Shown piece by piece: positions 6,412-33,014 of a stretch of 33,014 nt of DNA (its first letter is position 1; each line of letters begins with the position of its first letter). The DNA comes from a virus. Lineage: Duplodnaviria; Heunggongvirae; Uroviricota; Caudoviricetes. Where the stretch lies: IMG/VR virus record IMGVR_UViG_2713896896_000010, positions 1 through 33,014 of that record, one strand, 5' to 3'. The translations under genes and the position numbers were made by a program. Under the pieces are notes generated by a model that was not told the origin of the DNA, did no database searches, and saw only the letters and a list, made by a program, of their open reading frames with translations.

Positions 6412-6822
6412 GTGAAGAAAATGATTTTTGTGGCGGCATTGCTGACCATTACCCAACAGGCGCAGGCTTCAGCAGTTATTGTGGCATCTACCGCTGCGAC
6501 CACTGCTGCCGCAGCTGCTGCGAACTCTGCGAATATCGCAAACCAACAGGCACAGCGTGCTGCTAATGCATCAGCCAGTGCTCTCCCGGTTTCTGTTAAG
6601 GGCAGTAAGCAAAATCTGGGGTTCATAACATGCGGTAAGCGTTCTTCTGAAGCTGTAGGCTCACTGGGATGTACGGTATATGGCGATGGTGAGAGCAGAG
6701 AAATTCCATGGAAAACGTGGCCCGGATACGTTCTCGGCTCGAAGCTCCCGGCCAGCTATGAAGTAAACGCCGTATCGTTTGATCACTATAACAGCGTGGC
6801 AACTGTCTATTTTACATACTGA
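6412..6822 (+). CDS. Secreted protein with N-terminal signal peptide and Ala/Thr-rich linker
   Basis: GTG start 7 nt after an AGGAGG Shine-Dalgarno. Signal-like N-terminus MKKMIFVAALLTITQQAQA, then a low-complexity A/T/N/Q stretch and a Cys-containing C-terminal domain. Confidence 0.6.
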   Translation: MKKMIFVAALLTITQQAQASAVIVASTAATTAAAAAANSANIANQQAQRAANASASALPVSVKGSKQNLGFITCGKRSSEAVGSLGCTVYGDGESREIPWKTWPGYVLGSKLPASYEVNAVSFDHYNSVATVYFTY

Positions 6823-6921
6823 GGCTCGATATGGAATTTTCTGAATCACGGAGTAACAACTCGATGAAAACTATCACCGTAACGGTTGAAATCGACGTTC
6901 CTGATAACGCGGGGTGAAAAT

Positions 6922-7173
6922 ATGAGATGGGCTGACCTTTTTATTATCGCTCTGATTGTTACGGGGATTGCGCTTTGTGTGACAACTAACAAGGCTTCTG
7001 ATGATGCGGAAAATGGGCATTGCGTGGTAAAGAGAAATTTCATCAAAACCATTACGCATTGTGATGATGGAAGCGCCACCATGACCAGCGGGGATAAGTT
7101 TATTTATTGCTCTGCGGGGAAAAATGGCACGCCATCCTGTCATGAAGTGACGCTCGGTGATGGTGATAAATAA
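6922..7173 (+). CDS. Small membrane-anchored or secreted Cys-rich protein
   Basis: Internal ATG of track ORF 6886..7173. Hydrophobic N-terminus LFIIALIVTGIALCVTT followed by a region with at least five cysteines. AT-rich. Confidence 0.45.
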   Translation: MRWADLFIIALIVTGIALCVTTNKASDDAENGHCVVKRNFIKTITHCDDGSATMTSGDKFIYCSAGKNGTPSCHEVTLGDGDK

Positions 7174-7253: not shown

Positions 7254-7532
7254 ATGAAGATTGAACAAATCGGAATGGCAGCTTTCAGGCAACAGGCTGA
7301 AAGCGGTGGCGTGGATGAGTTCGTCGTGCAGCGGTTCGGTGGTGTGTATCACCTCTTCGCTGTGAATCGCCGCGCCGGGGTGTCCTATTTTCTACAGGAA
7401 CGCCGTGGCGATTACAAGACGTGGTTGTCTCTTGACCGTGCCGCTGCGTTCTTGTCAGGGATTGGCGTTTCACGTTTTACCGTGCGTTTTGAGGATAACA
7501 AACATGCTGAAAAAGATGATCGGGGCCATTAA
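7254..7532 (+). CDS. Hypothetical protein upstream of gemA-like
   Basis: Internal ATG of track ORF 7218..7532. The 7218 ATG sits at the palindrome centre, so 7254 is preferred. Overlaps the gemA-like start. Confidence 0.4.
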   Translation: MKIEQIGMAAFRQQAESGGVDEFVVQRFGGVYHLFAVNRRAGVSYFLQERRGDYKTWLSLDRAAAFLSGIGVSRFTVRFEDNKHAEKDDRGH

Positions 7533-7902
7533 AGCTGGTCAGGCGTATCTGGGGTGGGATGATGCCCTTTATCGCCAGACGCTGGCCCGCCTGACCGGTA
7601 AAACCAGCACCACACGCTGCAATCTCGATGAACTGCGCATCATCCGGGAATACATGCACGAACAGGGATTCCCGCGCAAGGCACCCGCCGGTAAAGGTCG
7701 CCGCCCTCGTGTTGCAATGAGCAGAAAATCAGTATTATCCAAAATTGAAGCGTTGCTGGCTGATGCAGGTCGTTCCTGGGCGTATGCAGAAGGACTGGCA
7801 TCTCACATGTATAAGCAACATGTGATCGAATGGCTGACGGATGAACAGCTTTTTGGAGTGATGGTGGCGCTGGTTAAAGATTCAAGAAGGAGAAATCAAT
7901 GA
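7504..7902 (+). CDS. gemA: GemA-like regulatory protein (Mu gp16 family)
   Basis: Internal ATG of track ORF 7405..7902. N-terminal pattern KKMIGAIKAGQAYLGWDDALYRQTLARLTGKTS matches the GemA/DUF1018 signature as I recall it. Position upstream of mor-like matches Mu. Confidence 0.65.
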   Translation: MLKKMIGAIKAGQAYLGWDDALYRQTLARLTGKTSTTRCNLDELRIIREYMHEQGFPRKAPAGKGRRPRVAMSRKSVLSKIEALLADAGRSWAYAEGLASHMYKQHVIEWLTDEQLFGVMVALVKDSRRRNQ

Positions 7903-8375
7903 TGAAAAAATGGTTGTTTTGTTTAGTAGGGGTTATTTTCTCTTGTTCTGTGCTGGCACAGACAGAGGAACAGGCGCAAAAGGAACTGAAACGTTATCAG
8001 GATATGAAGCCATTGGCTGAACAGATGCTTCGGGAAAGTGGAAAACTTTATTACGCTATGCCAGAAGCTGCATCGCAGTATCAGCAGGGAAATATTGAAG
8101 AGTGGAAGAATATCAAAAAAGGACTAAAACAACTGGATGAACAGGCCAGTAAACTGGGGGACGACCCGCTTGATCCTGTGTATGGTTCCTGCATAAAAAT
8201 GAAAAACCAGCTACAGGATTACTGGTCTAACGTTATCAGGGATGACAGGCAGTTTCTGGAGCGTTCAAGAAATCAGTTTAAAGAATATCGTATGGATTGT
8301 TTTGATTCGTTTGTTTTTGGTAAAGAGCAAATAGAATCAAGAAAAGGCCTGGTTATTCTAGACCTGACTAAATAA
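7899..8375 (+). CDS. AT-rich cargo gene (moron): secreted or lipoprotein-like, helical
   Basis: 158 aa with signal-like N-terminus MMKKWLFCLVGVIFSCSVLA. Clearly AT-richer than flanking phage genes. Followed by a strong intrinsic terminator. Confidence 0.6.
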   Translation: MMKKWLFCLVGVIFSCSVLAQTEEQAQKELKRYQDMKPLAEQMLRESGKLYYAMPEAASQYQQGNIEEWKNIKKGLKQLDEQASKLGDDPLDPVYGSCIKMKNQLQDYWSNVIRDDRQFLERSRNQFKEYRMDCFDSFVFGKEQIESRKGLVILDLTK

Positions 8376-8385
8376 GACTTAGTTT

Positions 8386-8412
8386 AGCCCCTGCCATGCA
8401 GGGGCTTTTTTT
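8386..8412 (+). terminator. Rho-independent terminator
   Basis: Stem AGCCCCTGC / GCAGGGGCT with a 3-nt loop, followed by a T7 run. Read directly. Confidence 0.7.
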
Positions 8413-8418
8413 GTGGTC

Positions 8419-8446
8419 TGTACAGGCGATCATGTATGGCTATAAT
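8419..8446 (+). promoter_or_regulatory. Candidate sigma70 promoter for the mor-like gene
   Basis: Perfect TATAAT at 8441..8446. A weak -35 (TGTACA) lies 16 bp upstream. GGAG Shine-Dalgarno before the ATG at 8476. Confidence 0.3.
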
Positions 8447-8475
8447 AACAGTAAGTTACTACCGGAGACGCCATC

Positions 8476-8943
8476 ATGCAGACCTTCAGTGAAACAGATC
8501 TTCGCGATGCGCAGGCACTGCTGCCCGATTCCGTACAGCAACTGATTAGCGTGATTGGCTTCCCCGCTCTGACCCGGTTGATTCGTTCTTTTGGTGGCGT
8601 GACGTTAAGCGGTAAAACCGGCGCACACGCCGAACGCACCGGCGGTGTCCATGCCCTGTTACATGACGTGCTGACCGAAGACGAAATCAACAAACTGATC
8701 CGCTTTCTTGGCGGTGCACCGTTTTACATTCCCCGTTGTGATCATGCTTTACGTGCCCTGCGTAACACCCGTTTTATGGCTGATTTACAGCAGCATGTTA
8801 AAGGCGGTTGCTCACACCGACAGGCGCTGGCACTGCTTTGTCCCCGTTACGGGATTTCAGACCGGTATGCATGGCAACTGATACACCGACGACAAAAACA
8901 GACTTCGCTGAAAAGCCCCACCCAGGTGGGGCTTTTTGATTAA
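8476..8943 (+). CDS. mor: Mor/C-family transcriptional activator
   Basis: 155 aa. The C-terminal helix-turn-helix-like segment ...RYGISDRYAWQLI is typical of the Mor/C family. Position after gemA-like matches Mu mor. Confidence 0.65.
   Translation: MQTFSETDLRDAQALLPDSVQQLISVIGFPALTRLIRSFGGVTLSGKTGAHAERTGGVHALLHDVLTEDEINKLIRFLGGAPFYIPRCDHALRALRNTRFMADLQQHVKGGCSHRQALALLCPRYGISDRYAWQLIHRRQKQTSLKSPTQVGLFD
8914..8937 (+). terminator. Rho-independent terminator embedded in the 3' end of the mor-like gene
   Basis: GC-rich stem GCCCCACC / GGTGGGGC followed by TTTTT. Overlaps the last codons of the ORF. Confidence 0.55.
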
Positions 8944-8968
8944 TGGGACTCAGAAAAAGGAGACACTT

Positions 8969-9247
8969 ATGACCAACTATACGGCACTTGGCGAGTATAC
9001 GGCCTACTCAGAGCAGGCACGGGATGCTGCCGGACGCCGCTTCGCTTATATGAAAAATCTGGCCAGCCAGCTAAACCGAATGGCCGAACAACCGGATATG
9101 GTTGTTCAGGAAGAAGCGTTGCAGTGTGCCATTGCTGACATCATCGCCAGCGAAAACGAGATGCGCGCAGCGATGGAAAAGGCGAACGCCTCTGCTCCGC
9201 TTTGTAATAAACCTCTTATTACGCCGGACTCCCTTTCCCGCTTCTGA
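8969..9247 (+). CDS. Hypothetical protein
   Basis: ATG preceded by AAGGAG at 7-nt spacing. Internal start of track ORF 8936..9247, which begins at a TTG. No helix-turn-helix seen. Confidence 0.5.
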   Translation: MTNYTALGEYTAYSEQARDAAGRRFAYMKNLASQLNRMAEQPDMVVQEEALQCAIADIIASENEMRAAMEKANASAPLCNKPLITPDSLSRF

Positions 9248-9267
9248 TTTATCACCCCGCCGCTGCG

Positions 9268-9294
9268 GGGTGCTGAACTCCCCCAGCAGTACCC
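9268..9294 (+). promoter_or_regulatory. Conserved motif copy A (GGGTGCTGAACTCCCCCAGCAGTACCC)
   Basis: Matches the copy at 17427..17453 at 23 of 27 positions. Lies 135 nt upstream of the first lysis-cassette gene. Confidence 0.35.
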
Positions 9295-9430
9295 ACCACA
9301 CCAGACCGTTTACCCTGTCCACTCAGACCACAAGACACCTTAAGGGATAGCGCCCGGCAAAAGTCATTCTTTGTCTTTGACCGGGTGTTATTTACGGGCC
9401 GTCAGTGGCTCAGATTTACAGGAGAAACTC

Positions 9431-9823: not shown

Positions 9824-10109
9824 CCTTGCCGGTATTGTGAACGTCTGGCTGTGTCTTGCCATTGTGCTGGGGTTGTTTATGTATCGCCGCCACGGCGCAG
9901 CACATAAACCAGTGATTACCTGGCTGGCGTACTGGCTGATGCTCGGCTACGGCATCATCCCGCTCCTCTGGCTGACGGGGTCACATACGCACTCCAGCTG
10001 GCTGGCGGTGGCACTGAATCTGGTTTTCTGTGCGCTTATCGTGTGGGCGCGCGGGAATTTATCAAAAATCCTTTCGTTACTGAGGCATCCGTATGAAATC
10101 AAAAGATGA
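9813..10109 (+). CDS. Small membrane protein (holin/antiholin-like)
   Basis: 98 aa with about three hydrophobic helices. Overlaps both neighbouring genes. Confidence 0.5.
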   Translation: MESSLAGIVNVWLCLAIVLGLFMYRRHGAAHKPVITWLAYWLMLGYGIIPLLWLTGSHTHSSWLAVALNLVFCALIVWARGNLSKILSLLRHPYEIKR

Positions 10110-10638
10110 CATTTTTGATGAAGTCCTGGGCAAAGAAGGCGGTTACGTCAATCACCCGGATGATAAGGGCGGTCCGACCAAATGGGGCATTACGGAAAAA
10201 GTTGCCCGCGCCCACGGATACCGTGGTGATATGCGCGATTTAACCCGCCAGCAGGCGCTGGACATCCTTGAAGCCGATTACTGGTATGGCCCGCGATTTG
10301 ACCAGGTCGCCGCATTATCCCCTGATATTGCCGCAGAGTTGTGTGATACCGGTGTGAATATGGGGCCATCCGCGGCGTCCAGAATGCTTCAGCGCTGGCT
10401 GAATGTGTTCAATTTGCGCGGGAAGCTGTACCCGGATATGGATGCAGACGGACGCATCGGGCCTCGCACCATCAGTGCATTGCGCACCTTCCTGAATAAT
10501 CGCGGTCAGGACGGTGAACGGGTGATGCTGACGGCCCTGAACTGCACGCAGGGGGACCGCTATCTGGAACTGGCAGAGAAACGCGAGGCTAACGAATCGT
10601 TTGTTTATGGCTGGCTGAAGGGGCGCGTGGCGGTATGA
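10093..10638 (+). CDS. Endolysin, glycoside hydrolase family 108-like with a C-terminal peptidoglycan-binding region
   Basis: N-terminal EGGYVNHPDDKGGPTKWGIT is the GH108 signature as I recall it. 181 aa. Confidence 0.75.
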   Translation: MKSKDDIFDEVLGKEGGYVNHPDDKGGPTKWGITEKVARAHGYRGDMRDLTRQQALDILEADYWYGPRFDQVAALSPDIAAELCDTGVNMGPSAASRMLQRWLNVFNLRGKLYPDMDADGRIGPRTISALRTFLNNRGQDGERVMLTALNCTQGDRYLELAEKREANESFVYGWLKGRVAV

Positions 10639-30836: not shown

Positions 30837-31409
30837 ATGAATACGGTTGATTTATTTCGTGCCATGTTACCGCCGGTCAGCTATGACCCGAACGGGAAAT
30901 ATATTTCAGCAGAGCTGAACGCAGAAGCAGCCATTATGGATGAAGTAAAAGCGTCAGCTGCACGAGTGCTTGCATCTGTCACACCATTTTATGCATCCAT
31001 GACGCTGTCTGACTGGGAACGAGTATATGGAGTAATACCCCGCGACGGTGCCACACAGCAGGAACGCCGAGAAAATATTCTTATAAAGATGGCTGCAACT
31101 GGTGGGTTATCCATCCCTTATTTTAAACAACTTGCAGCCAGCCTCGGATACACCATAACAATTACTGAACTTCATCCATTCAGAACGGGGGTAAACCGAT
31201 GTGGTGATCGCCTCTATATAACAGATGCCCGCTGGATTTGGCAGGTTAATGTCACAGGAAGCAGAACGCCAGCTTATAGATTCAGAACCGGAGTATCTGC
31301 AACCGGGGAACCGTTACTTTCCTTTGGTGCTCCTGTTCTGGAAGAAACATTTAAAGATCTTAAACCCGCTTTTACTTATTGCTATTTCACATATAAGGAG
31401 AAGCAGTAA
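30837..31409 (+). CDS. Tail protein, DUF2313/YmfQ-like (Mu gp48-like)
   Basis: 190 aa, between the J-like and tail-fibre genes, as in Mu and e14. Confidence 0.65.
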
Positions 31410-31723
31410 TGCAAAACCTGATGCCCCAGATAAATACACCAGACAAATTGTTCCATGATGGTGACCCAACTCAGGGGATAGAAGGAACCATCGTGACAGC
31501 TGATTATATGAATAATCAGCAGGGAGCAACCCGTGATTTGCAGCAGGAACTCCTTAATGTTCTAAGTAGTGCGCATATTCAACCTGATCCAAAAAAAACG
31601 GATCAACTACTTACTGCACTTTGTGCGCTACTGTTAAGCCGTAAGAATCCGTTTGGCGACATCAAATCAGATGGCACGGTGAAAACGGCTCTCGAAAGTA
31701 CCGGATATGAACAGCTTTGGTAA
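31409..31723 (+). CDS. Tail fibre, N-terminal constant part
   Basis: 104 aa. The pattern ...[25 protein letters not shown] resembles conserved tail-fibre N-terminal domains. Ends in a stop 17 nt after the next ORF begins. Confidence 0.55.
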
Positions 31724-32006
31724 CTCATTGACCGCCAATGGATACCAGAAATTACCTGGGGGGATGATTATTCAATGGGGGAATTTTTCTGTCTCACCAA
31801 CCGGAGGAAGTGTTGGAACAGTTGATATAACATTACCTGTAGCTTTCCCAGCGGCTTGTCGTTCGGTAAATGCTCTTATTTCAACTAATGATCCTTCTGC
31901 CCGTTCTGTGGGCTTTGATATTGGAAGTACCAACAGAACTAAAATCAGATTTACTTACACTTCTGCTACAATAAATTCAATTTACTGGATGGCTGTAGGG
32001 TATTAA
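31707..32006 (+). CDS. Tail fibre, C-terminal variable (receptor-binding) part in a different frame
   Basis: 99 aa. [15 protein letters not shown] looks like the start of a tail-fibre C-terminal domain. No obvious Shine-Dalgarno before its ATG. Confidence 0.5.
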
Positions 32007-32008
32007 CT

Positions 32009-32440
32009 ATGGAAAAGACATATTATTTTAATCCCTCTGATTCGGGGTTTTATATTTCACCAGATAGCCAAACCATTCCTGAGAACGCTACGAAAATAAA
32101 CTTTACTATTTATTCTGAGTTCGCAGGAGTTGCATGGCCTGATGGTAAAATACTTGGTTCAGATAAAAATGGTTTTCCAATATGGCAGGATGCGCCACCA
32201 CTTACCAGCGAAGAATTAATCACAATCGCTGAATCAAATAAACAGCGATTAGTTAATCAGGCCAACGAATACATGAACAGTAAGCAATGGCCCGGTAAAG
32301 CCGCTATTGGCCGTCTGAAAGGCGAGGAACTGGCGCAATATAATCTGTGGCTGGATTATCTGGACGCACTGGAACTGATTGATACCTCCAGTGATCCAGA
32401 TATTGAATGGCCTACGCCTCCGGCAGTTCAGGCCAGATGA
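32009..32440 (+). CDS. Tail fibre assembly protein (Tfa)
   Basis: 143 aa. C-terminal LWLDYLDALELIDTSSDPDIEWPTPP is typical of Tfa chaperones. Confidence 0.7.
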   Translation: MEKTYYFNPSDSGFYISPDSQTIPENATKINFTIYSEFAGVAWPDGKILGSDKNGFPIWQDAPPLTSEELITIAESNKQRLVNQANEYMNSKQWPGKAAIGRLKGEELAQYNLWLDYLDALELIDTSSDPDIEWPTPPAVQAR

Positions 32441-33014
32441 CATCCGGCGCGGTGCTGGTATCTGTTGCCGTCACCGCGTCAATGTAATCCAGCACAGCGT
32501 TAAGTCTGGTTGTTTCTGCCTGCGTCAGTTTACGTCCGGCCTGCAATTTCAGTTGAATCAGACTGGTGGAAGCCATTGCAGTATCAATCAGCGACTGGCG
32601 CTGTACTTCTGCTGCATCTACTGCGGCGCTGTGCTGTGCCTCGGTATCCGTCACCCATTTCTCACCATCCCATTTATCGTATGACGTTAACGGAGCGAGA
32701 GTGGTTGTATTTTCAGGATAATCTCCCGGTACTGTAATTTCTTTTGCTTCTCCTGTTTCAGTGTTATAGACCGTTTCACCGCGATGGTCTGGCACGTACT
32801 CCCATGAGTTTAAATCTGCTGAACGGCAGATAGCATAACCAGCTTTATGTGTGCCAGGTGCATCTAAACAGGAATACGCCGGAATACCAACACCTACAGC
32901 AAGAAATTCGGTTGATGCAGAAATATATTCCCTTGTCTCACTGTTATAGTTGTAAACGATAATGTTTCCTTCCTGTACGGCAATAAGCTCATTGTTTAAT
33001 ATCGCGTTATTCAT
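32412..33014 (-). CDS. Alternative tail fibre assembly protein (Tfa'), convergent
   Basis: 200 aa on the minus strand. C-terminal LNAVLDYIDAVTATDTSTAPDVIWPELP parallels the + strand Tfa. Its ATG is the last three bases of the window, so anything upstream is unseen. Confidence 0.7.
   Translation of the reverse strand: MNNAILNNELIAVQEGNIIVYNYNSETREYISASTEFLAVGVGIPAYSCLDAPGTHKAGYAICRSADLNSWEYVPDHRGETVYNTETGEAKEITVPGDYPENTTTLAPLTSYDKWDGEKWVTDTEAQHSAAVDAAEVQRQSLIDTAMASTSLIQLKLQAGRKLTQAETTRLNAVLDYIDAVTATDTSTAPDVIWPELPEA

What the first reader, a model, noticed from the sequence alone, without database searches (positions are those of the whole stretch)
7899..8412. AT-rich cargo gene for a secreted helical protein, with its own terminator, between gemA-like and mor-like
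The ORF at 7899..8375 is visibly AT-richer than the surrounding phage genes. It encodes a signal-peptide protein with a possible lipobox-like FSCS, which would place it outside the cytoplasm, unusual for an early regulatory operon. It is followed by a strong intrinsic terminator at 8386..8412. It interrupts what in Mu is the contiguous gemA-mor pair. This is the classic signature of a moron, a gene that may be expressed from the prophage. A role in superinfection exclusion, envelope modification or virulence is possible.
Basis: partly seen in the sequence, partly recalled or inferred. Interest (0 to 1): 0.55.

Follow-up and report, generated by a model that had tools for sequence, protein, structure and literature searches.

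The report
Swappable periplasmic-protein gene in Mu-like prophage
This is a real, optional gene of an E. coli Mu-like prophage that encodes a small exported helical protein of unknown function, sitting in a slot where related phages carry other exported proteins or nothing; it is a typical phage accessory gene, not a self-contained moron with its own terminator.

Summary
ORF 7899..8375 is real (dN/dS 0.1-0.16), AT-rich (GC 0.40 against 0.54; lowest 0.9% of equal-sized windows), and encodes a signal-peptide protein modelled as a helical bundle (pLDDT 83.6). A strong hairpin plus T-run follows at 8386..8412.

- Among 58 E. coli genomes with this Mu-like prophage lineage, the gemA-mor slot holds this gene (12), a diverged allele (11), an unrelated 112-aa exported protein (12), an unrelated 174-aa exported protein (5), or nothing (18).
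- The empty slots keep the same hairpin, so a terminator there belongs to the phage backbone.
- The ORF has no promoter of its own. Its ATG overlaps the gemA stop (ATGA), and its Shine-Dalgarno lies inside gemA. It is most likely the last cistron of the early operon.
- The "lipobox" cysteine is absent from 10 of 17 family members. A signal peptidase I site and two mature cysteines are universal.
- The family has no Pfam, PHROG or PDB relative. In all nine loci with readable flanks it lies beside Mu-like gemA/mor or lysis genes, down to 23% identity.

Function is unknown. My best guess is a periplasmic binding protein made early in lytic growth, perhaps for exclusion as with T4 Spackle.

The parts
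7504..7902 (+). gemA (gp16 family). Its last ~10 codons differ between slot states and carry the cargo's ribosome-binding site.
   Evidence: Pfam GemA E 1.5e-18. The gemA C-terminus reads ..VKDSRRRNQ* with cargo A..VKDSRRRK* with cargo C..VKDARKRNRAK* with cargo B, and ..TKDARKRARAARKQ* when the slot is empty.
7887..7902 (+). Shine-Dalgarno AAGGAG (7887..7892) and the ATGA overlap of the cargo start (7899) with the gemA stop (7900..7902). This is the arrangement expected for translational coupling.
   Evidence: Read directly from the sequence. The same overlap occurs in the Yersinia member and in 27-45% identical members; in the Salmonella locus L017 gemA ends at the first base of the cargo start. 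In Mu, mor occupies this coupled position.
7899..7958 (+). Signal peptide (residues 1-20, predicted cleavage VLA|QTEE). Its first 13 codons also serve as the left homology arm for cassette exchange.
   Evidence: Rule-based analysis of 17 family members. The L030 chimera shares the first 13 codons base for base and then switches to a different mature domain.
7959..8375 (+). Mature protein: 138 aa, 16.4 kDa, pI 5.7. Predicted helical bundle with invariant G64, C98, W109 and C134. Includes the stop codon.
   Evidence: AF2 model pLDDT 83.6, pTM 0.74; family alignment A3; omega 0.09-0.16.
8018..8417 (+). Block that differs between the two allele classes. Identity to prophage L003 is 42-78% here, against 93-100% on both sides.
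   Evidence: Sliding identity profile. Cargo dS is 1.2, against 0.13 for gemA and 0.12 for mor.
8386..8412 (+). Intrinsic terminator-like hairpin plus T6. It is a backbone feature at the inferred end of the early operon.
   Evidence: The same hairpin is present in empty-slot relatives L006 and L007. A second hairpin type (CCTCCGC..GCGGAGG-T6) occupies the same place with the diverged allele and with cargo C.
8419..8446 (+). Sigma70-like promoter TGTACA-16-TATAAT in front of mor. It marks the start of the right homology arm and is near-invariant across all slot states.
   Evidence: Promoter scan, 10 of 12 matches. Identical in eight of the nine junctions compared; STEC316 differs at one spacer base.
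8476..8943 (+). mor (middle/late transcription activator), the downstream border of the slot.
   Evidence: Pfam Mor E 1e-6; phrog_836 E 1.2e-42.

Best explanation
The ORF is an optional accessory gene of an enterobacterial Mu-like transposable phage, and it occupies a fixed exchange slot at the distal end of the early operon.

Shown here:
- The slot lies between gemA and a backbone terminator plus mor-promoter module.
- It can be empty, or it can hold one of several unrelated genes, all of which encode exported or membrane proteins.
- Alleles are exchanged by recombination. The left arm is the gemA 3' end, the Shine-Dalgarno and the 5' part of the signal peptide or gene. The right arm is the terminator and mor promoter.

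Inferred expression and fate:
- The gene is transcribed from the early promoter together with gemA and translated by coupling (ATGA overlap). It is therefore made early after induction or infection and not in the repressed lysogen.
- The product is exported by Sec and cut by signal peptidase I after Ala20.
- It folds in the periplasm into a 16-kDa acidic helical bundle, probably stapled by a C98-C134 disulfide.

Inferred function (weakest step): it acts by binding an envelope or periplasmic target. The most likely purpose is to protect the phage-producing cell at the envelope level against competing phages or other periplasm-acting attack. That would resemble T4 Spackle or T5 Llp in outline. 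The deep allelic diversity on near-identical backbones would then reflect an arms race.
For: Anatomy and coupling.

Backbone terminator and slot states: 12 window allele, 11 diverged allele, 12 cargo C, 5 cargo B and 18 empty among 58 of 5426 E. coli genomes.

Recombination:
- Sharp breakpoints at about 8017 and 8417.
- Cargo dS 1.2 against 0.12-0.13 in the flanks.
- L018 and L021 have gemA and mor 97-99% identical but cargo only 30% identical.
- L030 is a chimera that switches after codon 13 of the signal peptide.

Export: all 17 members have two K/R in the first six residues, a hydrophobic core and an A-x-A-type site at residues 18-21. Exactly two mature cysteines are conserved.

Fold: pLDDT 83.6, five helices.

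Conserved position: all nine members with readable flanks lie beside gemA/mor or lysis genes of Mu-like phages. Eight of ten loci have a hairpin plus T-run after the gene, six by the strict rule and L022 and L105 by inspection.

Envelope theme: 7 of 7 distinct cargo types in gemA-mor slots are signal-peptide or transmembrane proteins, against 6 of 52 genes of the prophage by the same rule.

Precedents: T4 Spackle is an early, periplasmic, disulfide-bonded helical bundle that blocks superinfection (PMC7677548). Accessory genes of Pseudomonas Mu-like phages include the PilB inhibitors Tip and Aqs1, which remove the phage receptor, and the tail-assembly inhibitor Tab (PMC12035536).
Against: - No experiment or homology ties the protein to any function.
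- There is no Pfam, PHROG, NCBIfam or PADLOC hit.
- There is no PDB relative by sequence profile beyond designed helical bundles.
- Early-operon expression is inferred from architecture alone. A weak internal promoter or read-through in lysogens is not excluded.
- The window allele does satisfy a lipobox rule, so this subclade could be lipidated.
- The disulfide is inferred from conservation and helix register, not measured on coordinates.
- Mu-type tails are not known (from my own background knowledge) to carry a tail lysozyme, so the exact Spackle mechanism is unlikely.
Confidence: 0.4

Rival explanations
1. It is a classic moron or lysogenic-conversion gene. It would be transcribed autonomously from the repressed prophage and would benefit the host, for example through exclusion, serum resistance or virulence.
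For: Low GC and GC3. Presence/absence polymorphism between adjacent conserved genes. A terminator lies downstream. The gene is present in the pathogen EPEC E2348/69. AT-rich genes can contain cryptic promoters.
Against: No sigma70-like promoter stands above background upstream of the ORF. The start codon overlaps the gemA stop and the ribosome-binding site lies inside gemA. The terminator is also present in empty slots. The hosts include dog, soil, chicken, cattle, mouse and human isolates, with no link to pathotype. The family tracks Mu-like phages, not host lineages.
Confidence: 0.2
2. It is a periplasmic regulator of lysis timing, an antiholin-like or endolysin-modulating factor comparable in logic to T4 RI.
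For: The gene lies within about 1 kb of the holin-endolysin cassette. In remote members it lies one or two genes upstream of the lysis genes: Amidase_2 in L106, a holin in L023, and a lysozyme two genes downstream in L022. The product is periplasmic.
Against: It sits upstream of a strong terminator, in the early unit, and not in the lysis unit. Slot state is independent of endolysin type: GH108 or M15 occurs with the diverged allele, with cargo C and with the empty slot. Five of the six E. coli relatives in which the slot is empty or holds an unrelated cargo (L001, L002, L006, L008, L009) carry a holin with the same accession, WP_001372993.1, as E2348/69; the window-identical genome carries a different holin accession. 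L018 and L021 share their lysis genes but differ 70% in the cargo.
Confidence: 0.12
3. It is an orphan immunity-type protein or inhibitor that neutralises a periplasm-acting toxin or enzyme, such as a T6SS amidase, a colicin or a lysozyme. Alternatively it is a decoy of a host periplasmic sensor domain that rewires envelope signalling.
For: It is a small, acidic, disulfide-bonded periplasmic helical protein with strongly diverged alleles. The top fold matches are periplasmic sensor four-helix bundles: QseE in complex with QseG, Tsr, Tar, NarQ and PcaY.
Confidence: 0.13
4. It is a spurious or decaying ORF with no function, an AT-rich spacer that happens to be open.
For: No known domain. The family is tiny: 10 clusters at 90% identity among 5.8 billion, and 11 profile hits among 1.84 billion representatives. 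One frameshifted remnant exists (P0010). The gene is dispensable, since the slot can be empty.
Against: omega is 0.09-0.16 over dS up to 1.2 and beyond. Conserved motifs and two invariant cysteines persist down to 23% identity. The AF2 model is confident from only 9 sequences. A ribosome-binding site is conserved across the close members compared at the junction, and the overlap with the gemA stop recurs down to 27% identity.
Confidence: 0.02

Closest known systems
T4 Spackle (gp61.3), a superinfection-exclusion protein
   Same: Both are phage genes expressed early (by position here). Both have a cleavable export signal and form a small periplasmic alpha-helical bundle with one disulfide. Both are non-essential (PMC7677548).
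   Different: There is no sequence or structural match. The mature protein here is 138 aa, against 75 aa for Spackle. Spackle's target, the gp5 tail lysozyme, has no known counterpart in Mu-type tails (my own background knowledge). The function here is untested.
T5 Llp and phi80/N15 Cor, envelope proteins that block the phage's own receptor
   Same: They are small exported phage accessory proteins that act at the envelope. Llp is listed among entry-blockade systems in PMC12035536.
   Different: From my background knowledge, those proteins are lipoproteins that bind FhuA. Here the lipobox cysteine is not conserved, and Mu-type phages use LPS, so the target must differ. There is no homology.
Regions of genomic plasticity and accessory genes of Pseudomonas Mu-like phages (Tip, Aqs1, Tab)
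   Same: They are fixed insertion/replacement slots between core genes of Mu-like phages, often a single ORF lying in a low-GC valley. Several of these genes have proven exclusion or defence roles (PMC4378225, PMC12035536).
   Different: It is a different phage genus and host, and the proteins are unrelated. The characterised examples are cytoplasmic (Tip and Aqs1 are PilB inhibitors, PMC12035536). Here every cargo in the slot is exported or membrane-bound, and part of the signal peptide serves as a recombination arm.
Lambdoid morons (definition quoted in PMC4378225, after Juhala et al. 2000)
   Same: An extra gene lies between two genes that are adjacent in relatives, and its base composition deviates.
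   Different: It lacks a promoter of its own and shares a backbone terminator. It is translationally coupled to the upstream core gene.
Bacteriophage Mu gemA-mor region
   Same: The flanking genes are homologous, in the same order, at the distal end of the early region.
   Different: In Mu, mor overlaps gemA by 4 nt and the hairpin follows mor. Here the cargo takes the coupled position, and mor sits behind a terminator with its own promoter-like element, even when the slot is empty.

Membership tests
Moron (as defined in PMC4378225 after Juhala/Hendrix) | Extra gene present between two genes that are adjacent in closely related phages | tested here: met
   18 of 58 related E. coli prophages have gemA and mor separated only by the 95-nt terminator/promoter spacer.
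Moron (as defined in PMC4378225 after Juhala/Hendrix) | Nucleotide composition different from the neighbours | tested here: met
   GC 0.40 against 0.52-0.53 in the flanks, and GC3 is likewise lower. The same holds for all family members and for the alternative cargoes.
Moron (as defined in PMC4378225 after Juhala/Hendrix) | Own promoter | tested here: not met
   No site passes the scan in 7500..7899. The best lenient match is 9 of 12 at 7712, against a background of 2.1 sites of at least 8/12 per kb. The start codon overlaps the gemA stop. This is a consensus scan only, not an experiment.
Moron (as defined in PMC4378225 after Juhala/Hendrix) | Own terminator | tested here: not met
   The same hairpin is present after gemA in empty-slot relatives. 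A second hairpin type does travel with the diverged allele and with cargo C, so a terminator at this site is constant while its sequence can be exchanged.
Moron (as defined in PMC4378225 after Juhala/Hendrix) | Expression from the repressed prophage | not testable with these tools
   This needs transcript data from a lysogen.
Bacterial lipoprotein (signal peptidase II substrate) | Lipobox with an invariant Cys at +1 | tested here: not met
   The window allele matches PROSITE PS51257 at Cys16. The Cys is Phe in P0003 and P0005 and absent in all 8 remote members. All 17 members keep an A-x-A-type site at residues 18-21. This is rule-based, with no dedicated predictor available.
T4 Spackle family | Sequence or structural homology to Spackle | tested here: not met
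T4 Spackle family | Exported small helical bundle with a disulfide, encoded by an early gene | tested here: inconclusive
   The signal peptide, the helical model and two invariant cysteines are met. The disulfide and the early timing are inferred.
T4 Spackle family | Binds and inhibits a tail lysozyme and blocks superinfection | not testable with these tools
   This needs biochemistry and plating assays.
Periplasmic four-helix-bundle sensor domains (4HB_MCP, NarX/Q, QseE type) | Four-helix-bundle fold flanked by two transmembrane helices and linked to a cytoplasmic signalling module | tested here: not met
Mu-like transposable prophage early region | Repressor, Ner-like protein, MuA transposase, MuB ATPase, GemA, Mor, and Mu-type head and contractile tail genes in Mu order | tested here: met
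   Annotation of the 99.9%-identical genome NZ_CP151045; Pfam GemA and Mor.

The most novel reading that the evidence does not exclude
Enterobacterial Mu-like phages may keep a dedicated slot for periplasmic effectors at the end of the early operon. Mature domains are shuffled between phages using a shared signal-peptide 5' end and the early terminator as recombination arms. The four-helix family found here would be one of several previously unrecognised, fast-evolving envelope-level exclusion or counter-defence factors deployed at the onset of lytic growth.
Probability: 0.3. Interest if true: 0.6.

Novelty: new member of a known kind. Interest (0 to 1): 0.4.

Why it matters
Optional genes at fixed slots are where temperate phages keep the tools for competing with other phages and for manipulating the host. 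Many exclusion, anti-defence and conversion functions have been found in such slots. This slot is unusually clean. It has five states in one E. coli prophage lineage, sharp recombination boundaries, and cargo that is always exported or membrane-bound. It therefore offers a small, well-defined set of uncharacterised periplasmic proteins (the four-helix family, the 112-aa family and the 167/174-aa family) that can be compared on near-isogenic phage backbones. The prophage is present in the reference EPEC strain E2348/69, so experiments are straightforward. The finding also corrects a common annotation reflex: an AT-rich gene followed by a terminator is not necessarily an autonomous moron.

Tried and rejected
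- Family libraries found nothing for the ORF or for the alternative cargoes: Pfam, PHROGs, NCBIfam and PADLOC. Only sub-threshold noise appeared. The DUF7181 hit came from a single member at E 0.0023. A hit to the 'C-type lysozyme inhibitor' model at E 0.12 covered only the signal peptide.
- tblastn against GenBank phages and PLSDB plasmids gave no match. megablast of the region against phages gave no match.
- The scan of species-representative genomes found no relative. The A3 profile was too divergent for the locus finder.
- The profile search against PDB sequences returned only designed helical bundles.
- I rejected the sensor-domain resemblance as a family assignment, because the scores are typical of any four-helix bundle and the signal-peptide helix imitates a transmembrane helix.
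- Rfam found nothing in the whole window.
- The repeat search found no flanking direct or inverted repeats that would suggest transposition or site-specific insertion.
- The family HMM does not match Mu gp14, gp18, gp19, gp20 or C.
- Homologue searches for cargo B and cargo C returned only 'hypothetical protein'.
- Literature searches for the protein accession and for the E2348/69 Mu-like prophage found nothing usable.
- I could not measure the C98-C134 distance because model coordinates are not exposed.

Full report
**1. What is there**

The window is a complete Mu-like transposable prophage of E. coli. It is 99.9% identical over the region to strain 20KM0223N, where it lies between yeiP and yeiQ, and 98.5% identical to EPEC E2348/69. 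The gene order is repressor, Ner-like protein, MuA, MuB, small early genes, gemA, the ORF in question, mor, holins, endolysin, terminase, Mu-type head and contractile tail.

- ORF 7899..8375 encodes 158 aa.
- Its GC is 0.403 against 0.543 for the rest of the window. GC3 is equally low. Only 0.9% of windows of the same size are as AT-rich.
- The hairpin AGCCCCTGC-CAT-GCAGGGGCT plus T6 lies at 8386..8412, with dG -17.6 kcal/mol.
- The neighbours are GemA (PF06252) and Mor (PF08765, phrog_836).

**2. It is a real gene for an exported helical protein**

Orthologues give omega 0.09-0.16 at dS 0.5-2.7. The family is very small: 10 clusters at 90% identity among 5.8 billion sequences, and 11 hits for an exhaustive profile search of 1.84 billion representatives.

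An alignment of 17 members reaching down to 23% identity keeps G64, C98, W109 and C134 invariant. Every member has two Lys/Arg in the first six residues, a hydrophobic core, and a small-x-small site at residues 18-21. Here the site reads VLA|QTEE.

The window allele also fits the PROSITE lipobox rule at Cys16. However, that Cys is Phe in two close relatives and absent from all remote members. Signal peptidase I processing to a soluble periplasmic protein is therefore the reading that fits the whole family. Lipidation of this subclade is not excluded.

AlphaFold2 with only nine sequences gives pLDDT 83.6 and pTM 0.74, with helices at residues 3-52, 54-62, 67-86, 96-112 and 117-157. C98 and C134 sit at matching depths on the last two antiparallel helices. 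Together with their invariance and the periplasmic location, this suggests a disulfide.

**3. No known relatives**

Pfam, PHROGs, NCBIfam and PADLOC give nothing. The family profile matches only designed helical bundles among PDB sequences.

**4. The slot**

Fifty-eight of 5426 complete E. coli genomes carry this gemA-mor region. By span and sequence they fall into five states:

| Slot state | Genomes |
|---|---|
| Window allele | 12 |
| Allele about 67-70% identical in protein | 11 |
| Unrelated 112-aa protein | 12 |
| Unrelated 174-aa protein | 5 |
| Empty | 18 |

All cargoes are AT-rich (GC 0.38-0.43). Each has a signal peptide and two cysteines in the mature part.

In the empty state, gemA is followed after 8 nt by the same AGCCCCTGCC-TGCAGGGGCT-T6 hairpin and the same downstream sequence CTGTACAGGCGATCATGTATGGCTATAAT...ATG(mor). 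The terminator and the promoter-like element in front of mor are thus part of the backbone of this lineage, and cargo is placed between gemA and the terminator.

In Mu itself, mor overlaps gemA by 4 nt and the hairpin comes after mor. In the window the cargo occupies that coupled position. Its ATG (7899) overlaps the gemA stop (7900..7902), and its AAGGAG (7887..7892) lies within the last gemA codons, which differ according to slot state.

No sigma70-like site above background lies upstream. The simplest reading is that the gene is the last cistron of the early operon. It would then be made on induction or infection, and not in the repressed lysogen. This step is inferred from architecture only.

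**5. How alleles are exchanged**

- Against prophage L003, identity is 93-100% up to about nt 8017. It falls to 42-78% from 8018 to 8417 and returns to 100% at 8418.
- Cargo dS is 1.2, against 0.13 for gemA and 0.12 for mor.
- In another backbone, L018 and L021 have gemA and mor 97-99% identical but cargo proteins only 30% identical.
- An IMG/VR contig (L030) is a chimera. Its first 13 codons are base-for-base those of the window's signal peptide. The sequence then switches to a mature domain 35% identical (E 3e-34) to the 174-aa protein, and it rejoins at the backbone hairpin.
- A second hairpin type (CCTCCGC..GCGGAGG-T6) accompanies both the diverged allele and the 112-aa gene.
- No flanking repeats or mobile-element ends are present.

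The pattern is homologous-recombination cassette exchange. The left arm is the gemA 3' end, the ribosome-binding site and the signal-peptide 5' end. The right arm is the terminator and mor promoter.

**6. The family belongs to Mu-like phages**

- The Yersinia, Salmonella and 27-45% identical members sit between gemA and mor. The Yersinia and the 27-45% identical members have the same 4-nt overlap, and in the Salmonella locus gemA ends at the cargo's first base.
- One member follows gemA after a gap.
- In phages where gemA and mor are contiguous as in Mu, the members at 23-27% identity come directly after mor and before the lysis genes.
- One short contig shows a member directly upstream of a holin.
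- A hairpin plus T-run follows the gene in eight of ten loci: six by my strict rule, and L022 and L105 by inspection with longer loops.
- All members are 8-17 GC points below their flanks.

The gene is therefore not a recent foreign import. It is an old, persistently AT-rich, fast-diverging accessory family of this phage group.

**7. An envelope theme**

I surveyed 80 IMG/VR loci related by gemA. About 50 of the more distant ones have gemA and mor overlapping or within about 10 nt, as in Mu. Wherever the interval holds a gene other than a mor paralogue, that gene encodes a signal-peptide or transmembrane protein. There are seven distinct types counting the E. coli ones. The same crude rule flags 6 of 52 genes of the prophage. 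If the types are independent, 7 of 7 has a probability of about 3e-7. The rule is rough, and independence is an assumption.

**8. What it probably does**

The function is unknown, so the following is reasoning from anatomy. The features are: early expression, export to the periplasm, a compact disulfide-stabilised binding-type fold, dispensability, replacement by other exported proteins, and very old alleles circulating on near-identical backbones. Together they resemble envelope-level exclusion or protection factors.

T4 Spackle is the nearest in outline. It is an early gene product with a cleaved export signal, and the mature 75-aa protein is a helical bundle with a disulfide that inhibits the tail lysozyme of superinfecting phage (PMC7677548). 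Mu-like phages of Pseudomonas keep receptor-elimination and defence genes (Tip, Aqs1, Tab) among their accessory genes, in fixed low-GC plasticity regions (PMC12035536, PMC4378225).

I give this reading about 0.4 overall. The structural and genetic parts are well supported, and the functional part is weak.

Rivals:
- **Prophage-expressed conversion gene (0.2).** Against it stand the missing promoter and the coupling to gemA.
- **Lysis-timing regulator (0.12).** Slot state is independent of endolysin type. Five of the six E. coli relatives in which the slot is empty or holds an unrelated cargo carry a holin with the same accession as E2348/69, although the window-identical genome carries a different holin accession.
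- **Orphan immunity protein or sensor decoy (0.13).** It rests only on generic fold resemblance.
- **Non-functional ORF (0.02).** It is excluded by the selection analysis.

**9. Verdict**

The gene is a new, uncharacterised member of a familiar category: a phage accessory gene in a plasticity slot. The instructive details are that the terminator belongs to the backbone, that the gene is coupled to gemA, and that the exchanged unit is essentially the mature domain of an exported protein. Interest is moderate (0.4). It would rise if the slot proves to be a dedicated periplasmic-effector locus with exclusion activity.

Noticed in passing
window 8386..8946: mor is a one-gene unit bracketed by two hairpin plus T-run sites (8386..8412 and 8911..8937). 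It is preceded by a sigma70-like promoter, TGTACA-16-TATAAT (8419..8446), conserved in all nine junctions compared (one spacer substitution in STEC316). A CTGTACAG palindrome lies over the -35 and a GATC lies in the spacer. A remote relative (L020) has the same CTGTACAG...TATAAT element. In Mu, mor is coupled to gemA instead. How a lysogen keeps such a promoter silent is unexplained.
   Followed up: partly
window 6412..7173: Two more small envelope-targeted ORFs of the early region lie in a second GC trough (0.42-0.47). One is 6412..6822: 136 aa, signal peptide followed by an Ala-rich tract, phrog_8805. The other is 6922..7173: 83 aa, N-terminal transmembrane segment, five cysteines, phrog_8391. 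Both are of unknown function.
   Followed up: partly
window 8938..9300 (ORF 8969..9247): The small gene after mor (phrog_7152) looks like another allelic replacement spot. Identity to the Yersinia and Salmonella relatives drops from above 90% to 42-75% starting right after the mor terminator. E. coli relatives carry either a 279-nt or a 288-nt version, independently of the cargo slot state.
   Followed up: partly
window 10093..10638 and loci L003, L006, L008: The endolysin module is swapped between GH108 plus a peptidoglycan-binding domain (as in the window) and an M15 metallopeptidase among otherwise near-identical prophages, together with a 98-aa or 92-aa second holin.
   Followed up: no
window 31300..32450; L005 4650..6286: The deepest GC trough of the window (minimum 0.38) lies in the tail-fibre region. 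In the identical genome, tail-fibre assembly genes lie on both strands next to truncated tail-protein fragments, which recalls Mu's invertible G segment.
   Followed up: no
protein P0010 (E. coli): This is a 106-aa frameshifted remnant of the cargo gene. Its reading frame runs on into the terminator hairpin sequence, showing that the gene can decay in place.
   Followed up: no
L075, L076, L082 (IMG/VR): These Mu-like contigs carry two mor paralogues in tandem after gemA. They are separated by a very AT-rich (GC 0.29) 110-aa membrane-anchored ORF.
   Followed up: no
L024 (phage Mu 9459..9950): Mu's own gp19 (120 aa, with several hydrophobic segments) and gp20 (39 aa, with one) lie between mor and C and look like membrane proteins. 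Envelope-directed small proteins next to mor may therefore be a general trait of the group.
   Followed up: no
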